Below the pieces are notes generated by a model. That model was not told the origin of the DNA. It worked only from the letters and a program-made list of their open reading frames with translations, and ran no database searches. A stretch of DNA of 25,724 nt, taken from the IMG/VR virus record IMGVR_UViG_2778261058_000001. The stretch is one strand, 5' to 3'. A program made the translations under genes and the position numbers. Shown here one piece after another: positions 12,864-21,817 of the stretch. Every line of letters begins with the position of its first letter. Position 1 is the first letter of the stretch. The DNA comes from a virus (lineage: Duplodnaviria; Heunggongvirae; Uroviricota; Caudoviricetes).

Positions 12864-14651
12864 ATGGCGTATTCTGATGAGGTGATTGCTGCTGCAAAAT
12901 CGCTCTATCTGAAAAGGCACACACCAAAAGAAATACAAAAGAAACTCGGACTGAACAGCCCGCGAATTGTTTATTACTGGGCGACAAAGTTTGAGTGGTA
13001 CACGCAGCTCAATACGGAAGGCGTGGAAGATGTTATCGCCCGGCGTCTCGCTGTACTGGCGGAGCGTGACCATAAAACGCCGGAAGAGCACGATGAACTC
13101 GACCGCCTGATTGGTCATCACGTCAAACTAATGTCGGTCAGAAACAAGCACACGGAACGAATGGCTGAGATTGCGCGAATGGGAGTGGACATCCCCCAGC
13201 CTGGCCGTTATGGAAAAGAAGAACGCGGAGAAAAAGGTGCAGGGAAGAAAGAGCGTCCCCGCAAAACTAATGACGTTTCCGGACTGACTGCTGAAAGTTT
13301 TGAGCCGTTTACGAAGAAGTTGTTTGCTTATCAGTTGCGCCTGCGTGAAAACAAATTCCGCCGTGTACGCAACCTGCTTAAATCCCGCCAGATTGGGGCG
13401 ACGTATTACTTCGCGTTTGAGGCATTTGAAGATGCAGTATTAACCGGCGACACGCAGATATTTTTATCGGCATCAAAACGTCAGGCCGAAGTGTTCCGTA
13501 CTTATATTGTAAAAATTGCACAAACAGAGTTTGGCATTCCCATTAAAGGCAATCCGGTTAAGTTAAGTAATCTGGCTGAACTGTATTTTCTGGCGACCAA
13601 CAGTAACACAGCGCAGTCAAACAGCGGCCACCTGTATATTGATGAATACCTGTGGATCCCCGGTTTTCGCCGTCTCAATGAAGTGGCATCAGGGATGGCC
13701 ACCCATAAACACTGGCGCATTACCTATTTCTCCACGCCGTCATCCAAAACACACCAGGGTTACCCGTTCTGGTCTGGCGATGAATGGCGCAAAGGCGATC
13801 CGAAACGAAAAGGGGTTGAGTTTCCGTCCTTTGATGAGCTGCGCGATGGTGGGCGTGAATGTCCGGATGGTCAGTGGCGCTATGTGGTTACGCTGGAAGA
13901 TGCCATTGCCGGCGGCTTTAACCTTGCTGACATCAACGAGCTGCGCGAGCGATACAACGAAACAGCGTTCAATATGCTGTTTATGTGTGTGTTTGTGGAT
14001 GACAAAGAGAGCGTCTTTAAATTCGATGATCTTGTGCGCTGTGGTGTGGATGTCAGTACGTGGGAGGATTTTCACCCGGAAGAGCCCATGCCATTTGGAA
14101 ACCGTGAAGTGTGGGGTGGCTTTGACCCTGCACGCTCCGGCGATAACGCCACGTTTGTGGTGCTGGCACCGCCGCTGGTTGCGGCAGAACGATTCCGCGT
14201 GCTGGAAAAACACCACTGGCGCAGCATGTCATTCCAGTTTATGGCAGAGCGTATCCGCAGCATTAAGGCACGCTATAACATGACGTTTATCGGCATTGAC
14301 GTCACCGGTCTTGGCTACGGTGTCTTTGAGCTGGTTCAGGGATTTGCCCGCCGTGAAACAGTGGCCATTCATTACAGCGTGGAATCCAAAAACCGCCTGG
14401 TGATGAAGATGCTGGATCTGATTTACGCCAACCGTATTGAGTGGGATGAAGAAGCCACGGATATTCCGGCATCGTTCCTGGCCATTCGTCAGGAATCCAC
14501 CAACAGCGGCAATAAAGTCACTTTCACCGCCGAACGTAGCGAAGAAACCGGGCACGCTGACATCTTCTTTGCCATAGCTCATGCCGCAAGTAATGAACCC
14601 CTGAACTATAAGCACAAGCGCAAATCAACATGGATCCTGTCAGATGAGTAA
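12864..14651 (+). CDS. P: terminase large (ATPase) subunit, P2 gpP-like
   Basis: 595-aa ORF with AGGTGAGG ribosome-binding site, divergent from O and followed by the portal gene with an 8-nt overlap, which is the P2 Q/P arrangement. Confidence 0.85.
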   Translation: MAYSDEVIAAAKSLYLKRHTPKEIQKKLGLNSPRIVYYWATKFEWYTQLNTEGVEDVIARRLAVLAERDHKTPEEHDELDRLIGHHVKLMSVRNKHTERMAEIARMGVDIPQPGRYGKEERGEKGAGKKERPRKTNDVSGLTAESFEPFTKKLFAYQLRLRENKFRRVRNLLKSRQIGATYYFAFEAFEDAVLTGDTQIFLSASKRQAEVFRTYIVKIAQTEFGIPIKGNPVKLSNLAELYFLATNSNTAQSNSGHLYIDEYLWIPGFRRLNEVASGMATHKHWRITYFSTPSSKTHQGYPFWSGDEWRKGDPKRKGVEFPSFDELRDGGRECPDGQWRYVVTLEDAIAGGFNLADINELRERYNETAFNMLFMCVFVDDKESVFKFDDLVRCGVDVSTWEDFHPEEPMPFGNREVWGGFDPARSGDNATFVVLAPPLVAAERFRVLEKHHWRSMSFQFMAERIRSIKARYNMTFIGIDVTGLGYGVFELVQGFARRETVAIHYSVESKNRLVMKMLDLIYANRIEWDEEATDIPASFLAIRQESTNSGNKVTFTAERSEETGHADIFFAIAHAASNEPLNYKHKRKSTWILSDE

Positions 14652-15678
14652 AAAGAAAAAATACCCCGTGTTACACGATGGCGTGGCAAAAAAAACAGCC
14701 AGCAAAATGACGTTTATTGAATTTGGTGACCCGGAACCGGTCGCTGCATGGGGCTGTTATTACGGCTCGCTCTGGGATGGCTATAACGGCTGGTACACGC
14801 CGCCCATTGAGCGCATGGATCTCGCCATGTTGTCCAATATCGCACCGTATCACGGCGCGGTATTGCGTGCGCGCGTCAATATGATCATGCAGGGTTTTCG
14901 GGGTGGTGGTGGTATGACACACGCCGCCATGGCGGCAGCAGTAACCAATCTGCTGATATTCGGGGATATGGGGTTGCTTAAAGTGCGCAATGGCTTCGGT
15001 CGAGTGGTGCGCCTGCATACGTTACCTTCTCTGTACCTGCGGCGTAACAACGAGGGTGGCACGGTGATTGTGCAGGCGGCACTGGAAGATCTCGTTTACC
15101 CGCCAGGCGAAGTGGTGTTCGTGGCCATTTATGACCCGCAACAGCAGGTTTACGGTGTCCCGGATTATATTCACGGGATGGAATCCGCCATGCTGAATGT
15201 GGATGCCACCCGCTTTCGCCGCAAGTATTACAAGAACGGCGCACATCTTGGTTATATCCTGTATTCCACTGACCCGGACATGGATCCCGAGCTCGAGGCG
15301 GAATTCCGTAAAAAGATAGAGGCGTCAAAAGGGGCGGGCAATTTTAAATCCATGTTTATCAATATACCTGGCGGAGACAAAGAAGGCGTTAAGGTGATCC
15401 CTATCGGGGATTCAGGCACAAAAGATGAGTTCCTGAATATAAAAACCATCAGTGCCCAGGATCAGCTCGTTGCGCACCGCTTTCCACCCGGGCTTGCCGG
15501 CATCATTCCCGCAAATACGGCCGGGCTTGGTGATCCGCTGAAATCCCGAGAGGCATATTACAGAGATGAGGTTATTCCGATGCGCCGTCTGATTATGGAG
15601 GGGATCAACAGCGACCCGGATATCAGACGGCTGGGGCAGGTGGAATTTATTCTTGAATTTAACGAATCCACGGAGTGA
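14644..15678 (+). CDS. Q: portal protein, P2 gpQ-like
   Basis: 344 aa, the same length as P2 Q. Starts MSKKKKYP; segment RFRRKYYKNGAHLGYILYSTDPD matches P2 Q (LFRRKYYENGAHAGYIMYVTD) from memory. Confidence 0.85.
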   Translation: MSKKKKYPVLHDGVAKKTASKMTFIEFGDPEPVAAWGCYYGSLWDGYNGWYTPPIERMDLAMLSNIAPYHGAVLRARVNMIMQGFRGGGGMTHAAMAAAVTNLLIFGDMGLLKVRNGFGRVVRLHTLPSLYLRRNNEGGTVIVQAALEDLVYPPGEVVFVAIYDPQQQVYGVPDYIHGMESAMLNVDATRFRRKYYKNGAHLGYILYSTDPDMDPELEAEFRKKIEASKGAGNFKSMFINIPGGDKEGVKVIPIGDSGTKDEFLNIKTISAQDQLVAHRFPPGLAGIIPANTAGLGDPLKSREAYYRDEVIPMRRLIMEGINSDPDIRRLGQVEFILEFNESTE

Positions 15679-15743
15679 TGTGCGGTATGGGGAAAGAGCG
15701 GGTAAAATCGGCGGCAGTAAAACGCTGTTCCGGGAGGTGGAAA

Positions 15744-16001
15744 ATGCGCAGACAGAAAGCGCGATGTCATTGCTGCGGTGCACATGCAGTGATTGAGAAA
15801 ACAGCCTGGAAAACCGATCAGTTTGCTGATGTGTATTACCGTTGCACCCGTCTCGAGTGCGGACATACCTGGGTGATGAATCTGACCTACTCGCACACAC
15901 TGGTGCCCAGCGGGCTGGATAACGGTGTGTTAAAGCTGTTGATTGAACGGATGCGCCCGGAAGAAAAACAAATGGCGCTGGAATTGTTGCAAGCGGGTTA
16001 G
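15744..16001 (+). CDS. ogr: Ogr/Delta-family zinc-finger late transcription activator
   Basis: Track ORF 15675..16001 trimmed to the ATG at 15744, which has a GGGAGGTGG ribosome-binding site (85 aa). Contains C-x2-C-x22-C-x4-C (CHCCGAHAVIEKTAWKTDQFADVYYRCTRLEC), the exact cysteine spacing of the Ogr zinc finger. Confidence 0.75.
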   Translation: MRRQKARCHCCGAHAVIEKTAWKTDQFADVYYRCTRLECGHTWVMNLTYSHTLVPSGLDNGVLKLLIERMRPEEKQMALELLQAG

Positions 16002-16245
16002 TGTTTTTTTTTGGGGGGTAAGGTAGCGCCAACCTCTCAGTTGGCGTGGTTGGAGTCCCAGTCTAACGACGAAGTGACCAACTAGGCGGTATCAACTTTT
16101 TTTTTGGGAGCCGCCTCTGAATCCCCAAAATATTCAATACAGTCTGCAAGTGAAAAGTAACGTTTAATGAACTTAAATTCAACGATAACCGTATTTGCGA
16201 TATGGGTTCACCTTGACTACAGCGACTGACGCGCTTCGCTTGTCC

Positions 16246-16291
16246 AACCCGGAACGGGCGCACAAAGAATTTGCGCACCCGTTCCGGGTTT
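16246..16291. repeat. long imperfect inverted repeat (about 20-bp arms)
   Basis: AACCCGGAACGGGCGCACAAA / GAAT / TTGCGCACCCGTTCCGGGTT; 13 perfectly paired outer bp plus inner pairs with 2 mismatches. Lies 18 nt beyond the stop of the minus-strand gene ending at 16309; weak T-tract on the plus side. Confidence 0.5.
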
Positions 16292-16308: not shown

Positions 16309-16596
16309 TCAGCGTGGATAAATTAACTTGAATTTGAGGAAGTTTTGTTTAATCCAGTCTTTAACATTTTCCCTTCCCTGAATACCTGATGGTAAGTGTT
16401 CGTGAATCATCCATTCAACAATGAGTTTTTCTTTCAGGGTGTATGCCTTAAAGGAATTAAGCATATTTAGTACTTCATAACCTTCTTTGCGGCTAAACCG
16501 ATGGCGGTCAGCAGCGGTTTTCGTGGGATCATCTCCTGGCAAAGCAGTCCAACTGTAATCGTCATAAAATAAATCGCTTCTTTTGATATCGGTCAT
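16309..16596 (-). CDS. hypothetical protein (95 aa) in AT-rich cargo islet
   Basis: ORF with AAGGATAATCAAATG ribosome-binding site; local GC visibly lower than the flanking phage genes; no family recognised. Confidence 0.5.
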   Translation of the reverse strand: MTDIKRSDLFYDDYSWTALPGDDPTKTAADRHRFSRKEGYEVLNMLNSFKAYTLKEKLIVEWMIHEHLPSGIQGRENVKDWIKQNFLKFKLIYPR

Positions 16597-16661
16597 TTGA
16601 TTATCCTTTCAGAAGAACCACCTCGCCAACCATTGTTGAGGTGGTGAAAAAGCAAAAATCG

Positions 16662-16940
16662 TTACGCAGCTTTGAGCAGAGCGCTGCTCATTGCATAGTC
16701 GTACCCAAGCATGTATGCCTCAAAGGCATCTTTATGTCTGACTGTGCCAGCCTGGCTATATGGAATATTTGCCAGGAAGGAATCATCTTTTGCTTTAGGA
16801 ATACCGATCATTGCATGAAGTACACCAAGCTCGTATGCGCAGGCTGCGCAGCGGTGGCGGCCTGTTTGCCCTTGGTTATCGGGAAGGTGTGAGTATTGGG
16901 GGTTGTATCGGTGGGAATTTTTACAAATCTTTATACCCAT
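16662..16940 (-). CDS. hypothetical protein (92 aa) in AT-rich cargo islet
   Basis: ORF with GAGGT ribosome-binding site 9 nt upstream of the ATG; contains CAACAYELGVLH; no family recognised. Confidence 0.5.
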   Translation of the reverse strand: MGIKICKNSHRYNPQYSHLPDNQGQTGRHRCAACAYELGVLHAMIGIPKAKDDSFLANIPYSQAGTVRHKDAFEAYMLGYDYAMSSALLKAA

Positions 16941-17043
16941 ATTTGATTTACCTCAATAAAATGAGGTGTTCACCTTTACATGGGCACACACAGAAAATAC
17001 GATTCTGGCGAGCTCAAGAGGTAGATGACACCTCGTTTTCTTT

Positions 17044-17080
17044 GGCGCCCCGATAGTTACCGCTATTGGGGCGTTTTCCT
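17044..17080 (+). terminator. rho-independent terminator-like hairpin, plus strand
   Basis: GGCGCCCCGATAG / TTACCG / CTATTGGGGCG gives an 11-bp stem (one G-U pair) with a 6-nt loop, followed by TTTTCCT. No annotated plus-strand gene lies upstream. Confidence 0.5.
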
Positions 17081-17166
17081 ATGCATGACACACAAACAAA
17101 GTGGTCATATCGTGATCGATCCTACAAAATCCCACACAGCTGTCAAGGGTATTGATCGTTTTAATC

Positions 17167-17188
17167 GATAGATAAATCAATATCTATC
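17167..17188. repeat. perfect palindrome GATAGATA-N6-TATCTATC in a GATC-rich AT-rich spacer
   Basis: Read directly: GATAGATA (17167-17174), AATCAA, TATCTATC (17181-17188). GATC sites nearby at about 17115, 17119, 17154 and 17198. Confidence 0.4.
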
Positions 17189-17250
17189 TGTTTAACAGAT
17201 CGATTATTAAGGTAAGCATGGGGGGCACCCCATAAAAGGTGTTTTATAGG

Positions 17251-17565
17251 TTATTCTGGAAAAAACGCCTGAATATTCTTTTTCACCTGCTGCATATGGG
17301 GGGCGCTGTCTGCTGCTGGTTGCGCCGGTTTTTCAGGCTGCACTGGTAGCGGTGGCATCCGTATTTCGTCTTCTGACCATTCTGCCAGCGAATACGCCAA
17401 CGCGGGGGTGCGTTTTATAAGAGCCAGTCCGGCCAGAAAAGCCGCGCGTTGTGCGCGGCTGCGTTCGGAGGCTGGCAGGCTGTCGAGGTAATTGCACGCC
17501 TCCCGTTCGCTCTTGACGACGGCGGGCTTCAGATAGAAACTTATCCGTCTGGTTGGTGTCGTCAT
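17251..17565 (-). CDS. parR: plasmid partition centromere-binding protein ParR (StbB)
   Basis: Track ORF 17251..17694 trimmed to the ATG at 17565..17563 with an AAGGAG ribosome-binding site (105 aa). ISFYLKP...CNYLDSLPASERSRAQRAAFLAGLAL parallels R1 ParR (IAFKLNP...CDTLDSIPQGERSRLNRAALTAGLAL) from memory; immediately downstream of parM. Confidence 0.8.
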   Translation of the reverse strand: MTTPTRRISFYLKPAVVKSEREACNYLDSLPASERSRAQRAAFLAGLALIKRTPALAYSLAEWSEDEIRMPPLPVQPEKPAQPAADSAPHMQQVKKNIQAFFPE

Positions 17566-17569
17566 TGGT

Positions 17570-18529
17570 TTACTCCTTGTCCATTGCGTACAGCCCATTA
17601 ACCAGAGCAAACTGTGGCACCCCGTCCGCGATGAAAGTCGCATTAACTCCGCAGGCTTCGCGGATAGCGGGTGCCACAATCTCCGCTCCTCCACCTACAA
17701 CCATCACCCGCCCGTAACCCGAAAAACCCGCCAGCGCGCGGATCACGCGTTGTTTCAGTGTTTCCTCCTTTTCACGAATAACTGCCATCAGGCTGGCGTA
17801 ATGTGCGTTATTGTGGATGTGCTGGCGCAGCCAAGCTTCATCGTGGCGATGTTCGATAATGGTATTAGCGATGTGGTGACTGGTACGCATACCGTTGGTG
17901 GCCATCACCGACAGCACGGCATCGGCCATCAGAGAAACGCCTACGTGTGGATCGCAAAACACCTGGCTGATACCTGCCAGTTGTCCCTGAACCTTTGCCA
18001 CATCCAGCGTGGTTCCGCCCAAATCCACAATCAGCAGGGATTCAAACTGACTCATGTCAGCCAGTGCCTTAAAGCCAGCCGGAATGGATTCAGGCATAAC
18101 CCGTACGTTGCGGATAGTGAATGCCTCACTGTTCTGATACTCCACCGGGCGCATAACGTTCGCTTTTTTGCGGTTGATGTTGGTCATATCCGGCTGGGCG
18201 TTTGTGTCGAAATACTCGCTCAGTGGCAGGGTGACAACCACATCCACTTCCTGTGGTGTGATACCTGATTTGACCAGCGCGTGATGAATGGCAATGACAT
18301 TCACATCGCTGTACTGGTATTGCGTGTCGGTCGTCTGGACAAAGCGATCGCTGACCGGATCAAAACCATAGCGCACGCCATCAAGCATGTAGTTTGCGGG
18401 CTGCGTGCCACCGAACGGCGCAGACCATTCCGACTTGAAGCTGTTCGGGCTGATGGCGTTGCGGCGTTCGCCGTTCTCAGTCCATGCCAGCTTGATGTTG
18501 GTGGAGCCGTCGTCGATACAAATTTTCAT
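17570..18529 (-). CDS. parM: actin-like plasmid segregation ATPase ParM (StbA)
   Basis: 319 aa. MKICIDDGSTNIKLAW, ISPNSFK, YSDVNVIAIHHAL, NAQPDMTNINRKKAN, VMPESIPAG, LIVDLGGTTLDV, VMVVGGGAE and LVNGLYAM all match remembered R1 ParM motifs along the full length. Confidence 0.9.
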   Translation of the reverse strand: MKICIDDGSTNIKLAWTENGERRNAISPNSFKSEWSAPFGGTQPANYMLDGVRYGFDPVSDRFVQTTDTQYQYSDVNVIAIHHALVKSGITPQEVDVVVTLPLSEYFDTNAQPDMTNINRKKANVMRPVEYQNSEAFTIRNVRVMPESIPAGFKALADMSQFESLLIVDLGGTTLDVAKVQGQLAGISQVFCDPHVGVSLMADAVLSVMATNGMRTSHHIANTIIEHRHDEAWLRQHIHNNAHYASLMAVIREKEETLKQRVIRALAGFSGYGRVMVVGGGAEIVAPAIREACGVNATFIADGVPQFALVNGLYAMDKE

Positions 18530-18560: not shown

Positions 18561-18673
18561 TTTACGGGATTCTGAAATCCCGCTTTCGCCTGTTTTGTGC
18601 GCGCTTCATATATCGCGGCGCGTTTTTTGCTCATTTACGGGATTTGTAAATCCCGTTTTTGTCTGTTTTTTGT
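18561..18673. repeat. two ~40-bp direct repeats, each with a 6-bp hairpin, upstream of parM (parC-like or origin-like)
   Basis: Copy 1 at 18561-18598 (TTTACGGGATTCTGAAATCCCGCTTTCGCCTGTTTTGT); copy 2 at 18634-18673 (TTTACGGGATTTGTAAATCCCGTTTTTGTCTGTTTTTTGT). Each contains CGGGAT-N6-ATCCCG; copies are 73 bp apart. A 12-bp palindrome GGTTAATTAACC lies at 18548-18559. Confidence 0.5.
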
Positions 18674-21431
18674 TTCCACTGGTCAGGCCACCCCGCAGCA
18701 GGTTTGCTTTGCGGCGGGCGCGTTCAGTGGTTTCACTGATTCTCTGTGCGTGCTCTGCGTCACGGATGGCGCGCAGCATGTCAGAAAGCACGGTAACGGG
18801 TGTTTTCATGGTGTTCTGGTCTTGCTGAAGTGTGGATGCCAGGCGTGCGGCGGCTTCGGGGTCTGATGCCCCCAGCTGTTCCAGATAGCTGGCGACCGGG
18901 TTATGACGGATCTCCGTGCTGCTTACGCCGTGATTGCGGCTCAGGCGCTGCCAGAGCTGCGTGATTCGGCTGTCCGGGCGGGTATCCGGTTTGCGTACAA
19001 TTTCAAATCCCTGCGGTGCAATGATGCTGCCGTCAACGTACAGGCTGCCGCCCCGTAACAGGTGCTGCATCTGCTGTTCACCGATATGCAGGCCGAGAGA
19101 TTCAGCAGACTCCCGCCATTCTTTAGCGAGTAACTCGTGGTTATCAGGCAAAGGCTGTGGCTGTTTGCGGCTCTGTGTCCAGTTCTGCATTTCATCGCTG
19201 CTGTTTTTTGCCTGTTTGTCACGAAGCGAACGCATCAGCGCCCGGCGTTCGTGCCGTTTCAGTGAGCGCATCCATTCATTTACTTCAACGCCGTCAGGAA
19301 GCTGCGGCCACGGTGCTGGCCGTTCTTCCGGCTGTTCTGTCCCGTTGTTGTCCGTTTCCTGTACACGGGGACAGTTATTGCCACGAGTCCAAGGGGCGGC
19401 AGGGCCGCCCTGAAGGTCAAAACCATTTTCGCGGGTGCTGTCTTCCGCTTCCGGTTTACGTCTTACCAGCTTCCAGTTATCCGGATGCGTGCACACACGG
19501 GAGGATTCCCCGATGAGTGGTGACCAGATCCCGTAAATCTGTACACTCTGCTCGCCGTAATCGTTCAGCTCATCTGCGAGGTCGTAGGCGGTGCGAATCA
19601 GGTAGTCTTTGCGTGGAACAAGTACGCCGCCCTGTTTCTCTATGTAGGTGGCAAAACATCCGGCATCAGCGGCAGCGAGTACCGCATCCATTGCGTCATT
19701 TTCCAGACGTTGCGGTCCCTGTGGGTTACGTGCCATCTGACAGGCAAGGCGGCGCAGTTCACGCCACACCTGACGGGAGGGGATGCCAAAGAACTGGAAC
19801 TGGCGGACCCGGTGAAGGCGCGCCCAGCCGATGGCGCGTTCCACGCTTTCTGCCATCGTCTTTCCTGATTCGTCGTCGATGCGCGGTTTGCCTGTTTTCG
19901 GGTCAATGCCATCCACGGCGCGGCTGTCCAGGTTCTTTCCGATGTAGGTGGCGATGTAGCTGGTCGGCGTACCTTTCGAACCGTCGACGTACTCTGCCTT
20001 AAAGCGCGGAGTTATGTCATTGCCCAGCTCGTGGCGGTCTTCGCGAATGGCAATATCACGGGTGATGTCCACGATGCTGTCGATTTCTTCAGGATGTGCA
20101 AAGACCATCATGTGCCAGTGCACGGTGCCGTCATGGTGAGGCTCCACCGTGCGAATGCCATACCAGCGCAGGCCGTCGCGGTTCAGTTTTTTGCGGACCG
20201 CCTTAAAAAACGTGTTAACCAGGTAATCGCTGGAATCGCGCATGGTGGCCCCGTTCCATTTGGGGTTCGGATGACCGTTCTCCGTTGTTGCGTGGTACTT
20301 CGAAGGGGTAGTGACAGTCAGAAACACCGCTTTGTCGCCACGGGCTTCGGCCAGAAGTTCCAGCCCCTTCATGGTGGCCATCATTTCTGCCTTACGGTGA
20401 ACCGGGTTACTTACTCCCGCGTAATACACTGTCTCGAGATCAATCGTGAACCCGTCTTCGTTTTCCAGCATGAAACTTTTCAGGAAATCGCGTGTTTTCT
20501 CGCGCTGTGCGCGAAACTCGCTTAACGCGTCCTGGCTCAGATAAGGCGATGTTTTTCTGGAAACCAGACAGGCGGCGCGGAGTTGTTCTTCTCTCCACTC
20601 GCAACGTAACAGCCACAGTTTGCGTTTCCACCAGTCCGCACAGGTCAGGCGAAGGATTGCGCCCGGCAGCAGTTCCGTATCCGGTTCGCTCTTGTTCAGG
20701 GCTTCGTAATGTGGCGGCATGATGTGCAGGCGTAATGCGATACGAGCCAGCATCCGGTAAGCCTTCAACATTACATCCATGGTCAGCTCGCCATCTCTGG
20801 CACCAAAGCCATCGCAGAGTGTTTCGAAGGTGCTGCTGAACATCGCCGCGGTCATGGTGGCCAGCGTCTGTATCTGGTGCTTGTTGAGCTGCGGCAGGTA
20901 AAGCAAATCGTCCAGGCGTTCGCGCCCGGCAAGGGAGCGATAACCCGGTGTCAGCCAGCGATGATCGGTGCGGTCCAGACGTTCGAATATTTTGCGCAGG
21001 GTCCCACGCGCATAGCGTTCTGCCTGCCTAGCGTTTTTTCCTTTCTGACGATCGGCTTCCTGTTTTTTGCGCAGGAAGGAGAGGTGGCGGCTCAGTGGTT
21101 CACGCAGATAAACAGGTAGTGCCTTTAGTGTGGCAAAGGCACGGGCTACTGGGTCTTGTTCTGTTGCCCGGCGCTTACTGATGATGCTCTGTGCCAGCTT
21201 TTCACGCTGTCCGGCTTCCTCAAGGGATGCCATGAGTTTTTTACCCATGGCGGATTGTGCGAAAAAGGCTTCTTCCTTCGCTTCCTGTTCTTCCCGTGCC
21301 CTTTTGTCTGCCTCAAGGTAGTAACGGATGGCGCGTTGCAGGTCGGTTTCAGTTTCCTGCCTGCGCTCCGTAAATCTGGCCGGATCAATGGCTGGCCGTG
21401 GTTCATTCCAGCTCCATGCAAACTCGCTCAT
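18606..21431 (-). CDS. A: rolling-circle replication initiator (HUH endonuclease), P2 gpA-like
   Basis: Track ORF 18606..21458 trimmed to the ATG at 21431..21429, which overlaps the upstream stop (ATGA); 941 aa. HUH motif VHWHMMVF and tyrosine motif TSYIATYIGKN (Y-x3-Y then K) as in P2 and phiX174 gene A proteins. Convergent with Q/P as in P2. Confidence 0.8.
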   Translation of the reverse strand: MSEFAWSWNEPRPAIDPARFTERRQETETDLQRAIRYYLEADKRAREEQEAKEEAFFAQSAMGKKLMASLEEAGQREKLAQSIISKRRATEQDPVARAFATLKALPVYLREPLSRHLSFLRKKQEADRQKGKNARQAERYARGTLRKIFERLDRTDHRWLTPGYRSLAGRERLDDLLYLPQLNKHQIQTLATMTAAMFSSTFETLCDGFGARDGELTMDVMLKAYRMLARIALRLHIMPPHYEALNKSEPDTELLPGAILRLTCADWWKRKLWLLRCEWREEQLRAACLVSRKTSPYLSQDALSEFRAQREKTRDFLKSFMLENEDGFTIDLETVYYAGVSNPVHRKAEMMATMKGLELLAEARGDKAVFLTVTTPSKYHATTENGHPNPKWNGATMRDSSDYLVNTFFKAVRKKLNRDGLRWYGIRTVEPHHDGTVHWHMMVFAHPEEIDSIVDITRDIAIREDRHELGNDITPRFKAEYVDGSKGTPTSYIATYIGKNLDSRAVDGIDPKTGKPRIDDESGKTMAESVERAIGWARLHRVRQFQFFGIPSRQVWRELRRLACQMARNPQGPQRLENDAMDAVLAAADAGCFATYIEKQGGVLVPRKDYLIRTAYDLADELNDYGEQSVQIYGIWSPLIGESSRVCTHPDNWKLVRRKPEAEDSTRENGFDLQGGPAAPWTRGNNCPRVQETDNNGTEQPEERPAPWPQLPDGVEVNEWMRSLKRHERRALMRSLRDKQAKNSSDEMQNWTQSRKQPQPLPDNHELLAKEWRESAESLGLHIGEQQMQHLLRGGSLYVDGSIIAPQGFEIVRKPDTRPDSRITQLWQRLSRNHGVSSTEIRHNPVASYLEQLGASDPEAAARLASTLQQDQNTMKTPVTVLSDMLRAIRDAEHAQRISETTERARRKANLLRGGLTSGNKKQTKTGFTNPVNEQKTRRDI

Positions 21432-21817
21432 GGCTGGTATCCCGTCACGCGCTGCCACTCCTGCGAGAAGATGGCGGAAAGGCGGTTAAATTCAGCGGTG
21501 TATTCACTCAGCGAGGCACACCCGCCAGCAGTGCGATGCGCCAGCATTGCCGCGAATACGGAGGCCGGGGAGTCGTAATACGCCAGCAGTGATTCGCCGT
21601 GTGGTGTCAGGCAGTGCAACGCCAGCCCGTGTGGTGTGAAGTCCACGCGGTAGCAGTCGTCTACTGTGAAATAAAGGGTGTCCGCATTCTCCGGTTTTGT
21701 AGTGCGTGCTCTGTTGTCACGACCACGGATGTAAAGATCAAATAATCCCTGAAGAACGGGAGCCAGACGGGTGTCCTGTGTGCGCACCCATCTTGTGAAG
21801 TCATGAGCGTCAATCAT
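21428..21817 (-). CDS. hypothetical early protein upstream of gene A (positional analogue of P2 B region)
   Basis: 129-aa ORF translationally coupled to A (ATGA); no family recognised. Confidence 0.4.
   Translation of the reverse strand: MIDAHDFTRWVRTQDTRLAPVLQGLFDLYIRGRDNRARTTKPENADTLYFTVDDCYRVDFTPHGLALHCLTPHGESLLAYYDSPASVFAAMLAHRTAGGCASLSEYTAEFNRLSAIFSQEWQRVTGYQP

What the first reader, a model, noticed from the sequence alone, without database searches (positions are those of the whole stretch)
16309..16940. AT-rich two-gene cargo islet in the position of the P2 old/tin anti-phage hotspot
Between the packaging end and the replication arm, where P2 carries old and tin and where P2-like phages are known to carry varied defence cargo, there are two small genes (92 and 95 aa) with good ribosome-binding sites in markedly AT-rich DNA, separated by a hairpin (CCACCTC...GAGGTGG, 16618-16644) and followed by the long inverted repeat. 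Neither protein resembles a family I recognise, so this is a candidate uncharacterised defence or toxin-antitoxin pair.
Basis: partly seen in the sequence, partly recalled or inferred. Interest (0 to 1): 0.65.

Follow-up and report, generated by a model that had tools for sequence, protein, structure and literature searches.

The report
Two unrelated orphan genes, not a pair
The two small genes are real and sit in the known P2 cargo hotspot, but they are two independent single-gene cassettes, and the first encodes an uncharacterised zinc protein that in other bacteria is built into GATC-type restriction-modification operons and here lies behind a conserved RNA leader with a predicted antisense RNA.

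Summary
Two conserved ORFs (95 aa, 16309-16596; 92 aa, 16662-16940; minus strand) lie in AT-richer DNA between gpA-ParM-ParR and the portal gene of a P2-like phage, with the hairpin and the long inverted repeat as described.

The "pair" reading is not supported. The families co-occur only in one E. coli-type P2 lineage. 85 other loci carry the 92-aa family alone, and 79 metagenome loci carry the 95-aa family alone.

The 92-aa gene is a self-contained cassette:
- a GATC-rich sigma-70 promoter;
- a ~170-nt structured leader that buries the ribosome-binding site, supported by covariation;
- an antisense promoter and terminator predicting a ~70-nt cis-antisense RNA (promoter in 32 of 32 leader variants, terminator in 29);
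- its own terminator hairpin.

Outside Enterobacterales and Orbales the same zinc protein sits inside DpnII/Dam-type restriction-modification operons (40 of 51 loci). It is also fused to DndB-like, WYL and nuclease domains.

The 95-aa helical protein is a solo gene found beside varied defence genes.

Neither protein matches Pfam, NCBIfam, PADLOC or any solved fold, and the leader matches no Rfam family. Function is inferred: most likely DNA-associated regulators of restriction or defence systems carried as orphans. A type I toxin-antitoxin-like role for the zinc cassette is the main rival.

The parts
16309..16596 (-). 95-aa ORF: a small helical protein and optional add-on cargo of the hotspot
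16617..16645 (-). Hairpin between the two genes: probable leaky terminator of the 92-aa cassette
   Evidence: Inverted repeat I7. The stem covaries in L037 (ACATCTC/GAGATGT against CCACCTC/GAGGTGG). Other family members have a strong terminator at the same place just after the stop codon.
16662..16940 (-). 92-aa ORF: a small zinc (C6, H10, C31, C34) protein with an internal duplication (QTGRHRCAACAYELG ~ GTVRHKDAFEAYMLG)
   Evidence: ORF. Invariant residues come from alignments A1 and A3. It has 1804 homologues and matches PHROG 3941. The AF2 model has pLDDT 90.3 with no fold match. The family is embedded in DpnII/Dam-type R-M operons elsewhere.
16942..17079 (-). Conserved structured 5' leader of the 92-aa mRNA (the whole 5' UTR runs to about 17112). 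It contains a GC-rich hairpin, a long-range helix, an inner hairpin and a hairpin that sequesters the Shine-Dalgarno sequence (about 16950-16969).
   Evidence: A covariance model built only from lambdoid-context leaders hits this stretch full-length (27.6 bits, E 0.001). Covariation: 93.9% of cells paired against 78.4% in shuffles, and 20 of 33 pairs change on both sides. The single-sequence fold has z -4.85, with the SD and AUG paired.
17119..17146 (-). Sigma-70-type promoter of the 92-aa cassette (TTGACA-16-TAGGAT), flanked by and overlapping GATC sites
   Evidence: A promoter sits at the same distance from the start codon (-204 to -236) in most other lineages. GATC occurs at conserved positions -217 and -180.
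17151..17204 (.). Conserved palindromic, GATC/ATCGAT-rich region just upstream of the promoter: an operator, or possibly the parC site of the ParMR system
   Evidence: Inverted repeats I2 and I10. The region is conserved against the lineage whose ParR is only 55% identical.
16975..17080 (+). Predicted cis-antisense small RNA unit: promoter TTTACA-17-TACGAT (16975-17003), transcript about 17010-17080, terminator hairpin 17046-17073 plus a T run
   Evidence: Promoter and hairpins. The fold has z -3.97. TTTAC[AT]-17-TAnnnT is present in 32 of 32 distinct leaders, and a hairpin with a T-rich tail lies 61-92 nt downstream in 29 of 32. The same layout is seen in L070. There is no expression data.
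16246..16290 (.). Long inverted repeat closing the hotspot on the cos/portal side: a backbone element and probable bidirectional terminator
   Evidence: Inverted repeat I1. The 66-bp element 16226-16291 is 100% identical in the roughly 37 further E. coli genomes whose only match to the query is this element; in the one read, K_EC180, it borders other cargo.
17251..18529 (-). ParR (Plasmid_stab_B) and ParM (StbA) genes immediately upstream: the conserved neighbours of the 92-aa cassette in this phage lineage
   Evidence: Pfam E 3e-24 and 4e-82. The order gpA-ParM-ParR-92aa holds in 29-34 viral loci.

Best explanation
The islet is two independently mobile single-gene accessory cassettes. They are stacked in the cos-proximal gpA-gpQ hotspot of a ParMR-carrying P2-like (Xuanwuvirus-type) phage.

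Cassette 1 (about 17204 to 16617, minus strand) is a complete unit. It has a GATC-rich sigma-70 promoter and a ~170-nt structured leader whose last hairpin buries the Shine-Dalgarno sequence. A convergent promoter and terminator inside the leader predict a ~70-nt cis-antisense RNA. The 92-aa ORF and a hairpin terminator complete the unit.

Its product is a small zinc protein built from two copies of a 'G-x-x-R-H-[KR] plus helix' unit. In other phyla the same family is a built-in gene of GATC-specific (Dam-like methylase plus DpnII-type or other nuclease) restriction-modification operons. It is also fused there to DndB-like, WYL-regulator and PD-(D/E)XK domains.

Inference: it is a DNA-binding regulatory accessory, analogous to an R-M controller protein and tied to GATC sites or their methylation. 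Temperate phages of Dam-positive hosts captured it as an orphan and keep it translationally locked. Release would come when methylation state or antisense control changes, for example on replication, induction or infection.

Cassette 2 is the 95-aa helical protein. It is a solo gene that elsewhere lies directly beside varied defence genes and is fused to helix-hairpin-helix or lysine-rich DNA-binding modules. It is probably a small DNA-associated regulator or accessory. Here it would be expressed by read-through of the leaky hairpin or from a weak promoter over it.

Shown: the anatomy, the independence of the two genes, the conserved leader structure, the conservation of the antisense promoter and terminator, and the R-M association. 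Inferred: DNA binding, the regulatory role, the existence of the antisense RNA and the trigger.
For: Independence of the two genes:
- The two families co-occur only in the E. coli-type P2 lineage. 85 loci carry the 92-aa family alone and 9 carry the 95-aa family alone.
- None of the 79 metagenome and genome loci where a 95-aa-family ORF was called yielded a Zn-family ORF. Three of those loci are of the window's own lineage, where the ORF picker dropped the Zn ORF in favour of an overlapping antisense one.

Cassette nature of the 92-aa gene:
- The promoter sits at a constant -204 to -236 from the start codon in most lineages.
- A terminator follows the stop codon directly.

Leader:
- The covariance model finds it directly upstream of the gene in the window (E 0.001) and in other lineages, and nowhere else in about 860 kb apart from four weak hits at E 0.1 or above: one at window 14654-14722 (E 0.099), one at L035 2536-2604 (E 0.46), and two reverse-strand hits at L125 and L122 that reach into the 92-aa coding sequence.
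- Covariation beats all 500 shuffles and all slid controls. G-U pairs mark the sense strand.

Antisense unit: the promoter is present in 32 of 32 distinct leaders and the terminator in 29 of 32.

GATC: 4.7-fold enriched, at conserved positions.

R-M association:
- 40 of 51 non-enterobacterial loci carry R-M genes within three genes of the Zn gene.
- The order M.D12|Zn|R.DpnII occurs in 13 loci, with gaps of about 0-20 nt in the loci read.
- The neighbouring DpnII domain scores E 7.5e-112 and the D12 methylase 4.5e-60.
- Fusions are shown.

95-aa family:
- Its neighbours include HindIII nuclease plus methylase, an OLD-like ATPase-TOPRIM protein, a TIR protein, a Gabija/R-M/AbiJ island, patatin and a D12 methylase.
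- It is fused to DUF4332/HhH domains and AKKA-rich tails.
Against: - The window itself holds no restriction or methylase gene next to the islet.
- In Dam-positive hosts a DpnII-type system would be pointless, so what an orphan copy does is unclear.
- The covariation alignment was fitted to the model's structure, which inflates pairing.
- The model's E-values are rough, and two sub-lineages (L039-type and L070) were not recovered by the model.
- The antisense RNA is predicted only from promoter and terminator motifs.
- The 95-aa family's defence neighbours were sampled, not counted systematically.
Confidence: 0.45

Rival explanations
1. Type I toxin-antitoxin-like module. The 92-aa zinc protein is harmful when made. 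Its mRNA is kept silent by the folded leader and by a labile cis-antisense RNA. Loss of the element, or transcription shut-off by an infecting phage, releases translation. The result is post-segregational killing or abortive infection. This would be a companion to ParMR, as hok/sok accompanies parMRC on plasmid R1.
For: - The structured leader buries the SD and AUG.
- The antisense promoter and terminator are conserved.
- The cassette is monocistronic and sits in classic moron slots of several prophage types.
- It lies directly after the partition genes in 29-34 P2-like loci.
- The R1 parallel is my own knowledge.
Against: - The protein is soluble, 84-92 aa and not hydrophobic, unlike most type I toxins.
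- In other phyla the same protein is co-transcribed inside R-M operons with no leader. That is hard to square with an intrinsically toxic product.
- The predicted antisense RNA does not overlap the ribosome-binding site.
- No toxicity data exist.
Confidence: 0.2
2. Counter-defence by orphan regulators or inhibitors. The phage carries stand-alone copies of small accessory proteins of restriction and defence systems. It uses them to silence, mis-time or inhibit such systems in the host or in incoming rival elements.
For: - Both families occur beside or inside R-M and defence operons elsewhere, but here they have no effector.
- They sit in a hotspot known to hold conflict genes.
- Interference between systems that share a controller protein is established for C-protein R-M systems (my knowledge).
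Against: - No direct evidence exists.
- Hosts of these phages methylate GATC through Dam, so a DpnII-type target is unlikely.
- The gene looks lysogen-expressed from a sigma-70 promoter rather than early-lytic.
Confidence: 0.15
3. One reading: the 92-aa and 95-aa proteins act together as one two-protein defence system or type II toxin-antitoxin pair.
For: The two genes are adjacent and co-oriented with a 65-nt gap. The pair is conserved in that order in the E. coli-type lineage at 67-100% identity.
Against: - The families are otherwise never found together.
- The gap holds a covarying terminator-like hairpin.
- The sister lineage carries the 92-aa gene alone, or with an unrelated 187-aa gene.
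- There is no PADLOC hit.
Confidence: 0.07
4. The 92-aa protein is a backbone function of this phage lineage, linked to ParMR or to lysogeny control. The conserved palindromes would be parC or an operator. On this view it is not conflict-related cargo.
For: The order gpA-ParM-ParR-92aa and the intergenic palindromes are conserved between lineages whose ParR is only 55% identical.
Against: The same cassette occurs in lambdoid prophages without ParMR, after cI, in the nin region and beside lysis genes. It also occurs in R-M operons across phyla.
Confidence: 0.08

Closest known systems
Controller (C) proteins of type II restriction-modification systems (e.g. C.PvuII, C.Esp1396I)
   Same: Like C proteins, the 92-aa family is a small protein (about 85-92 aa) encoded inside R-M operons. 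It is often immediately upstream of the nuclease gene, with gaps of about 0-20 nt. Orphan copies also exist.
   Different: There is no helix-turn-helix. The family has a zinc site and an internal repeat, and no Pfam HTH or fold match. It is tied to GATC/Dam-type systems with at least three different nuclease families. No C-box or autoregulation has been shown. The window copy has no R-M partner.
Type I toxin-antitoxin loci (hok/sok, symE/symR, ralR/ralA)
   Same: The cassette has a long folded 5' UTR that hides the ribosome-binding site. A convergent promoter in the leader predicts a short cis-antisense RNA. It is located on prophages and, in this lineage, next to the ParMR partition genes.
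   Different: The product is a soluble zinc protein. Toxicity has not been shown. The antisense RNA does not cover the RBS. There is no Rfam family match. Homologues inside R-M operons lack the leader.
P2 old/tin and other cargo of the gpA-gpQ hotspot (Rousset et al. 2022)
   Same: The islet occupies the same slot between gpA and the portal gene next to cos. The arrangement is catalogued there as StbA + Plasmid_stab_B + two hypotheticals.
   Different: There is no homology to Old, Tin or any PADLOC model. It was not among the systems they cloned. The slot in this lineage shows only three states in the loci sampled: empty, the 95-aa gene, or a 187-aa gene.
Dam-methylation-sensitive, antisense-controlled genes such as the IS10 transposase (pIN/pOUT)
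   Same: GATC sites sit at conserved positions on the sense promoter and, in most lineages, on the antisense promoter. The sense and antisense promoters oppose each other.
   Different: The similarity is purely an analogy of layout. No methylation dependence has been tested, and the window's own antisense promoter lacks GATC.

Membership tests
Type II toxin-antitoxin pair | The two genes co-occur obligatorily as a unit across genomes | tested here: not met
   Apart from the window and 18 further fetched loci of the one E. coli-type P2 lineage, the two families were never found together: 85 loci carry the Zn family alone, 9 carry the 95-aa family alone, and none of the loci from the metagenome scan for the 95-aa family yielded a Zn-family ORF.
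Type II toxin-antitoxin pair | Tight operon (overlap or a few nucleotides apart), with a recognisable toxin or antitoxin fold | tested here: not met
   The 65-nt gap holds a covarying hairpin. There is no Pfam, NCBIfam or PADLOC hit and no fold match.
Type I toxin-antitoxin | Structured toxin mRNA leader with a sequestered ribosome-binding site | tested here: met
   The fold has z -4.85 with SD and AUG paired. Helix 5 covaries, with 6 of 7 pairs changing on both sides.
Type I toxin-antitoxin | Antisense RNA antitoxin transcribed against the toxin mRNA | tested here: inconclusive
   The promoter motif is present in 32 of 32 leaders and a terminator in 29 of 32. No transcript data are available with these tools.
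Type I toxin-antitoxin | Small, usually hydrophobic, toxic peptide | tested here: not met
   The product is a 92-aa soluble zinc protein with a confident globular model. Toxicity cannot be tested here.
R-M controller (C) protein | Xre-type helix-turn-helix fold | tested here: not met
R-M controller (C) protein | Encoded within an R-M gene cluster, typically just upstream of the nuclease gene | tested here: met
   This holds for the family: the order M.D12|Zn|R.DpnII occurs in 13 loci, and 40 of 51 non-enterobacterial loci carry R-M genes. It does not hold for the window copy, which is an orphan.
R-M controller (C) protein | Binds an operator (C-box) and autoregulates transcription | not testable with these tools
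   This needs EMSA or reporter assays. Conserved palindromes and GATC sites upstream are only suggestive.
Known anti-phage defence systems (PADLOC-DB) | Sequence match to a model of a known or candidate defence protein | tested here: not met
   Neither protein hits any family at E up to 1.
P2-like gpA-gpQ hotspot cargo | Located between the replication gene gpA and the portal gene gpQ next to cos, and variable among related phages | tested here: met
   Gene order is shown. The 95-aa gene is present or absent among relatives, while the Zn gene is kept. The hotspot is defined in PMC9122126.
Any Rfam RNA family (for the leader or antisense RNA) | Score at or above a family's gathering threshold | tested here: not met
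   Only sub-threshold hits were found: sar at 25.5 bits against a threshold of 43, and NsiR1 at 25.5 against 39.

The most novel reading that the evidence does not exclude
The 92-aa zinc protein is a previously unrecognised class of restriction-modification accessory. It would be a GATC- or methylation-state-reading regulator shared by DpnII/Dam-type systems across many phyla. Temperate phages of Dam-positive bacteria would have domesticated an orphan copy. They would run it under a new, unregistered RNA control element: a ~170-190-nt leader plus a cis-antisense RNA with Dam-site-decorated promoters. The copy would serve as a replication-, induction- or infection-triggered switch, acting in abortive infection or counter-restriction.
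Probability: 0.25. Interest if true: 0.8.

Novelty: new variant of a known kind. Interest (0 to 1): 0.6.

Why it matters
Three points would matter if the reading holds.

1. It corrects a tempting annotation. A two-gene defence or toxin-antitoxin pair in the P2 hotspot is really two unrelated orphan cassettes.

2. It exposes a widespread small zinc protein. A profile search finds more than 1800 clusters, and 231 species genomes encode a relative across many phyla. The protein is a recurrent, unannotated third or fourth gene of GATC-type R-M operons. It has no Pfam family and no structural relative. How these very common R-M systems are regulated or established would become directly testable.

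3. The phage-borne copies carry a conserved, covarying leader RNA with a predicted antisense RNA. This element is absent from Rfam and present in at least 166 complete E. coli genomes, including O157:H7 strains. It is a concrete candidate for a new post-transcriptional, and possibly Dam-dependent, control element on prophages.

Tried and rejected
- Near-identity DNA searches of the islet in the phage and plasmid collections found nothing. A tblastn of the 95-aa protein against phages also found nothing.
- Profile searches against PDB sequences gave no significant hit for either family.
- RNAalifold on the raw MAFFT alignment of all leaders predicted no pairs, because the alignment was structurally inconsistent. 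I switched to a hand-checked seed from one lineage plus a covariance model.
- I suspected that Rousset et al. had tested the FRIK944 P2 slot. Their FRIK944 construct was a P4 cytidine deaminase.
- The L047-type cassette is not in complete E. coli genomes.
- Literature searches for the accessions, the PHROG ids, type I TA in P2-like phages and a zinc controller in DpnII systems found no description.
- I did not complete a systematic defence-model scan of all 90 neighbours of the 95-aa family. The set was too large to submit.
- I considered P2 orf91 as a possible homologue of the 92-aa protein. The tblastn of that protein against the phage collection matched only 8 records, none of them P2.

Full report
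**What is there**

The window is a P2-like phage. The plus strand carries terminase (12864-14651), portal (14644-15678) and an Ogr/Delta zinc-finger gene (15675-16001). The minus strand carries gpA (18606-21458), ParM/StbA (17570-18529) and ParR/Plasmid_stab_B (17251-17565).

Between these lie the two reported ORFs: 95 aa (16309-16596) and 92 aa (16662-16940), both on the minus strand and both with good ribosome-binding sites. GC drops to 0.39-0.48 here against 0.50-0.57 in the flanks. The hairpin (16617-16645) and the long inverted repeat (16246-16290) are as described.

This is the gpA-gpQ, cos-proximal hotspot of Rousset et al. 2022 (PMC9122126). [quoted passage not shown] They note that about a quarter of P2-like phages carry such a partition system. 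They did not test this cargo.

**Both ORFs are real, conserved and unassigned**

- The 95-aa protein has 41 homologues by word-seeded search and 532 representative clusters by exhaustive profile search.
- The 92-aa protein has 7 direct homologues and 1804 with a profile.
- Neither hits Pfam, NCBIfam or PADLOC. The PHROG families (33929 and 3941) have no known function.
- AlphaFold models are confident (pLDDT 87.9 and 90.3).

**They are not a pair**

In E. coli-type P2-like prophages the order gpA-ParM-ParR-92aa-95aa-portal is conserved. Across all loci fetched, however, the two families co-occur only in that lineage.

- 85 loci have the 92-aa family alone and 9 have the 95-aa family alone.
- None of the loci fetched from metagenomes with the 95-aa profile yielded a Zn-family ORF. 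The three that belong to the window's own lineage do carry it, but the ORF picker chose an overlapping antisense ORF there.
- A sister P2 lineage keeps gpA-ParM-ParR and a 63%-identical homologue of the 92-aa protein. That cassette is in 166 of 5426 complete E. coli genomes, including O157:H7 FRIK944 and phage 520873 of genus Xuanwuvirus. In the loci of this lineage that were read, the homologue is followed either by nothing or by an unrelated 187-aa gene.
- The 95-aa family occurs alone in the same slot of a Pectobacterium P2-like prophage.
- The hairpin between the two genes covaries (CCACCTC/GAGGTGG against ACATCTC/GAGATGT). It sits where other family members have a strong terminator.

So the 95-aa gene is an add-on placed behind the terminator of a pre-existing cassette.

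**The 92-aa gene is a complete cassette with a conserved RNA leader**

A sigma-70-type promoter lies at a constant -204 to -236 from the start codon in most contexts examined. These include P2 hotspots, positions after cI, the nin region and positions next to lysis genes. In the window it is TTGACA-16-TAGGAT at 17146-17119.

The region between the promoter and the ATG is conserved across otherwise unrelated contexts. A covariance model built only from 18 lambdoid-context leaders finds the window's leader full-length at 16942-17079 (27.6 bits, E 0.001). In other lineages and in independent genome loci its matches lie directly upstream of the gene. Elsewhere in about 860 kb it gave only four weak hits at E 0.1 or above: one each at window 14654-14722 and L035 2536-2604, and two reverse-strand hits in L125 and L122 that reach into the 92-aa coding sequence.

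On the resulting alignment:
- 93.9% of cells pair, against 78.4% in shuffles;
- 20 of 33 pairs change on both sides;
- all 500 shuffles and all slid controls score lower.

The caveat is that the alignment was fitted to the model's structure. G-U pairs in helices 2 and 5 show that the structure belongs to the sense mRNA. Helix 5 buries the Shine-Dalgarno sequence. In the window the single-sequence fold (z -4.85) pairs both the SD and the AUG.

**A predicted antisense RNA and GATC decoration**

On the opposite strand, TTTAC[AT]-17 nt-TAnnnT lies 30-42 nt upstream of the start codon in 32 of 32 distinct leaders. A stable hairpin with a T-rich tail follows 61-92 nt downstream in 29 of 32. In the window these are 16975-17003 and 17046-17080, predicting a ~70-nt RNA that folds into two hairpins (z -3.97). 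The layout is the same in the divergent L070 lineage. Rfam has no family for it.

GATC is 4.7-fold enriched in the promoter and leader region, at conserved positions on the sense promoter. In most lineages it is also on the antisense promoter. No transcript or methylation data can be obtained with these tools, so the RNA and any Dam dependence remain predictions.

**What the 92-aa protein is elsewhere**

The family has invariant C6, H10, C31 and C34 (a likely zinc site) and an SQAGxVRHK motif. It also shows an internal duplication (QTGRHRCAACAYELG ~ GTVRHKDAFEAYMLG), which I identified by reading the sequence.

A scan of one genome per species found stretches encoding a relative in 231 cases. 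Among the 80 loci kept are Proteobacteria, Firmicutes, Bacteroidota, Spirochaetota, Verrucomicrobiota, Chloroflexota and Myxococcota. The leader accompanies only the Enterobacterales and Orbales copies.

In the other phyla the gene is embedded in operons, with gaps of about 0-20 nt to its same-strand neighbours. 40 of 51 such loci carry at least one of the following within three genes:
- a Dam-like D12 methylase (E 4.5e-60);
- a DpnII endonuclease (E 7.5e-112);
- N6_N4 methylases;
- a DUF6996/6997/7226 protein.

A PDDEXK_11 nuclease sits beside the methylase in three of these loci.

The commonest order is M.D12|Zn|R.DpnII(|M.N6N4), in 13 loci. The common denominator is the GATC-type methylase rather than one nuclease family. 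The domain is also fused to DGQHR (DndB-like) proteins, to an HTH-WYL regulator, and as two half-repeats to a PD-(D/E)XK-type domain. I found no paper describing such a component.

**What the 95-aa protein is elsewhere**

It is a solo gene with no conserved neighbour. It often lies just beside defence genes:
- 65 nt upstream of a HindIII nuclease with a convergent methylase (4 loci), 8 nt upstream of an OLD-like AAA_15-TOPRIM protein, and 6 nt upstream of a TIR protein;
- in a Janthinobacterium island with XhoI R-M, Gabija-like genes and AbiJ;
- next to a patatin gene;
- after a D12 methylase in a Pectobacterium P2 hotspot.

Distant members are tandemly duplicated, or fused to DUF4332/helix-hairpin-helix domains and lysine/alanine-rich tails typical of DNA-binding proteins. 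This association was sampled, not quantified.

**Interpretation**

The best-supported reading is two independent orphan accessory cassettes. The first encodes a small zinc protein that I infer to be a DNA-associated regulatory accessory of GATC-type R-M systems. It would be controller-like in position but not in fold. In enterobacterial and Orbales prophages it is kept under layered control: a GATC-rich promoter, an SD-sequestering leader and a predicted antisense RNA. The second encodes a small helical, probably DNA-associated accessory of varied defence loci.

The main rival for the first cassette is a type I toxin-antitoxin-like module accompanying ParMR, as hok/sok accompanies parMRC on R1. 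The regulatory layout fits. The soluble product and its leaderless life inside R-M operons argue against it.

Counter-defence by orphan regulators, and a backbone role linked to ParMR, remain possible.

**Novelty and value**

The arrangement is already catalogued, and the hotspot concept is known. Three things are new:
- the separation of the two genes;
- the link of the zinc family to DpnII/Dam-type R-M operons;
- the conserved leader and antisense element, which is absent from Rfam.

I rate it a new variant of known kinds (R-M accessory or controller; antisense-controlled prophage moron), with moderate-to-high interest. Function remains unproven.

Noticed in passing
window 17151-17204 (and 17119-17146): A palindromic, ATCGAT/GATC-rich block lies just downstream of parR and upstream of the 92-aa promoter. 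It is better conserved than the flanking proteins between lineages whose ParR is only 55% identical. No repeat array is evident in the 76-nt gap upstream of parM (read by eye only). This block could therefore be the parC centromere or operator of the phage's ParMR system, overlapping the cassette promoter.
   Followed up: partly
window 15675-16001 (+): A 108-aa Ogr/Delta-type zinc-finger gene (Pfam E 1.3e-12) starts 4 nt before the portal stop codon and runs toward cos. That is an unusual place for the late-gene activator. The E. coli relatives with the same islet have a different portal and terminase (348 and 583 aa) and lack this gene at that spot, so the window is mosaic.
   Followed up: no
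window 16226-16291: The 66-bp stretch containing the long inverted repeat is 100% identical in about 37 complete E. coli genomes that otherwise do not match the islet. In strain K_EC180 it lies between an Ogr/Delta gene and a different cargo set (an Rrf2 regulator plus a 95-aa hypothetical) directly after ParM-ParR. It behaves as a backbone boundary or terminator of the hotspot.
   Followed up: partly
window 17215-17250 (-): The hairpin after parR is followed by a C run in the window. The E. coli relatives have a clean T tract there (ACACCC-TTCA-GGGTGT-TTTTTT). The parR terminator therefore looks weakened here, which may allow read-through into the 92-aa promoter region.
   Followed up: no
window 16003-16020 and 16098-16112: Two homopolymer-rich stretches (T10-G6 and T11-GGG) flank an imperfect inverted repeat (16032-16044 and 16078-16090) between the Ogr-like gene and the long hairpin. 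They may be part of the cos region. They were not analysed.
   Followed up: no
L020 and L094, about 40 nt upstream of the -35 of the 92-aa family promoter: Lambdoid-context cassettes carry a CTGT-N8-ACAG motif (a perfect LexA-box core in L020 and L094, one mismatch in most others) upstream of the sense promoter. This hints at SOS input. The window lineage has CTGT-TAA-ACAG palindromes there instead.
   Followed up: no
L157, L160, L170, L174 (Bacteroidota genome loci); L164; L160 orf7: Natural fusions of the zinc domain exist: to the C-terminus of about 380-aa DGQHR (DndB-like) proteins next to DpnII-type R-M genes; to an HTH-WYL regulator in Cricetibacter; and as two CxxC-containing half-repeats N-terminal to a PD-(D/E)XK-like domain. 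These are useful Rosetta-stone leads for function.
   Followed up: partly
window 16641-16892 (+): An 83-aa ORF runs antisense across the 92-aa gene, and a 98-aa version appears in relatives, where my greedy ORF picker preferred it. It is cysteine-rich and of low complexity. It is most likely a shadow ORF, but this was not tested.
   Followed up: no
L068 5774-6337 (sister P2 lineage): The alternative cargo in the same slot is a 187-aa protein with no PADLOC match and no Pfam search done. It is another uncharacterised hotspot gene.
   Followed up: partly
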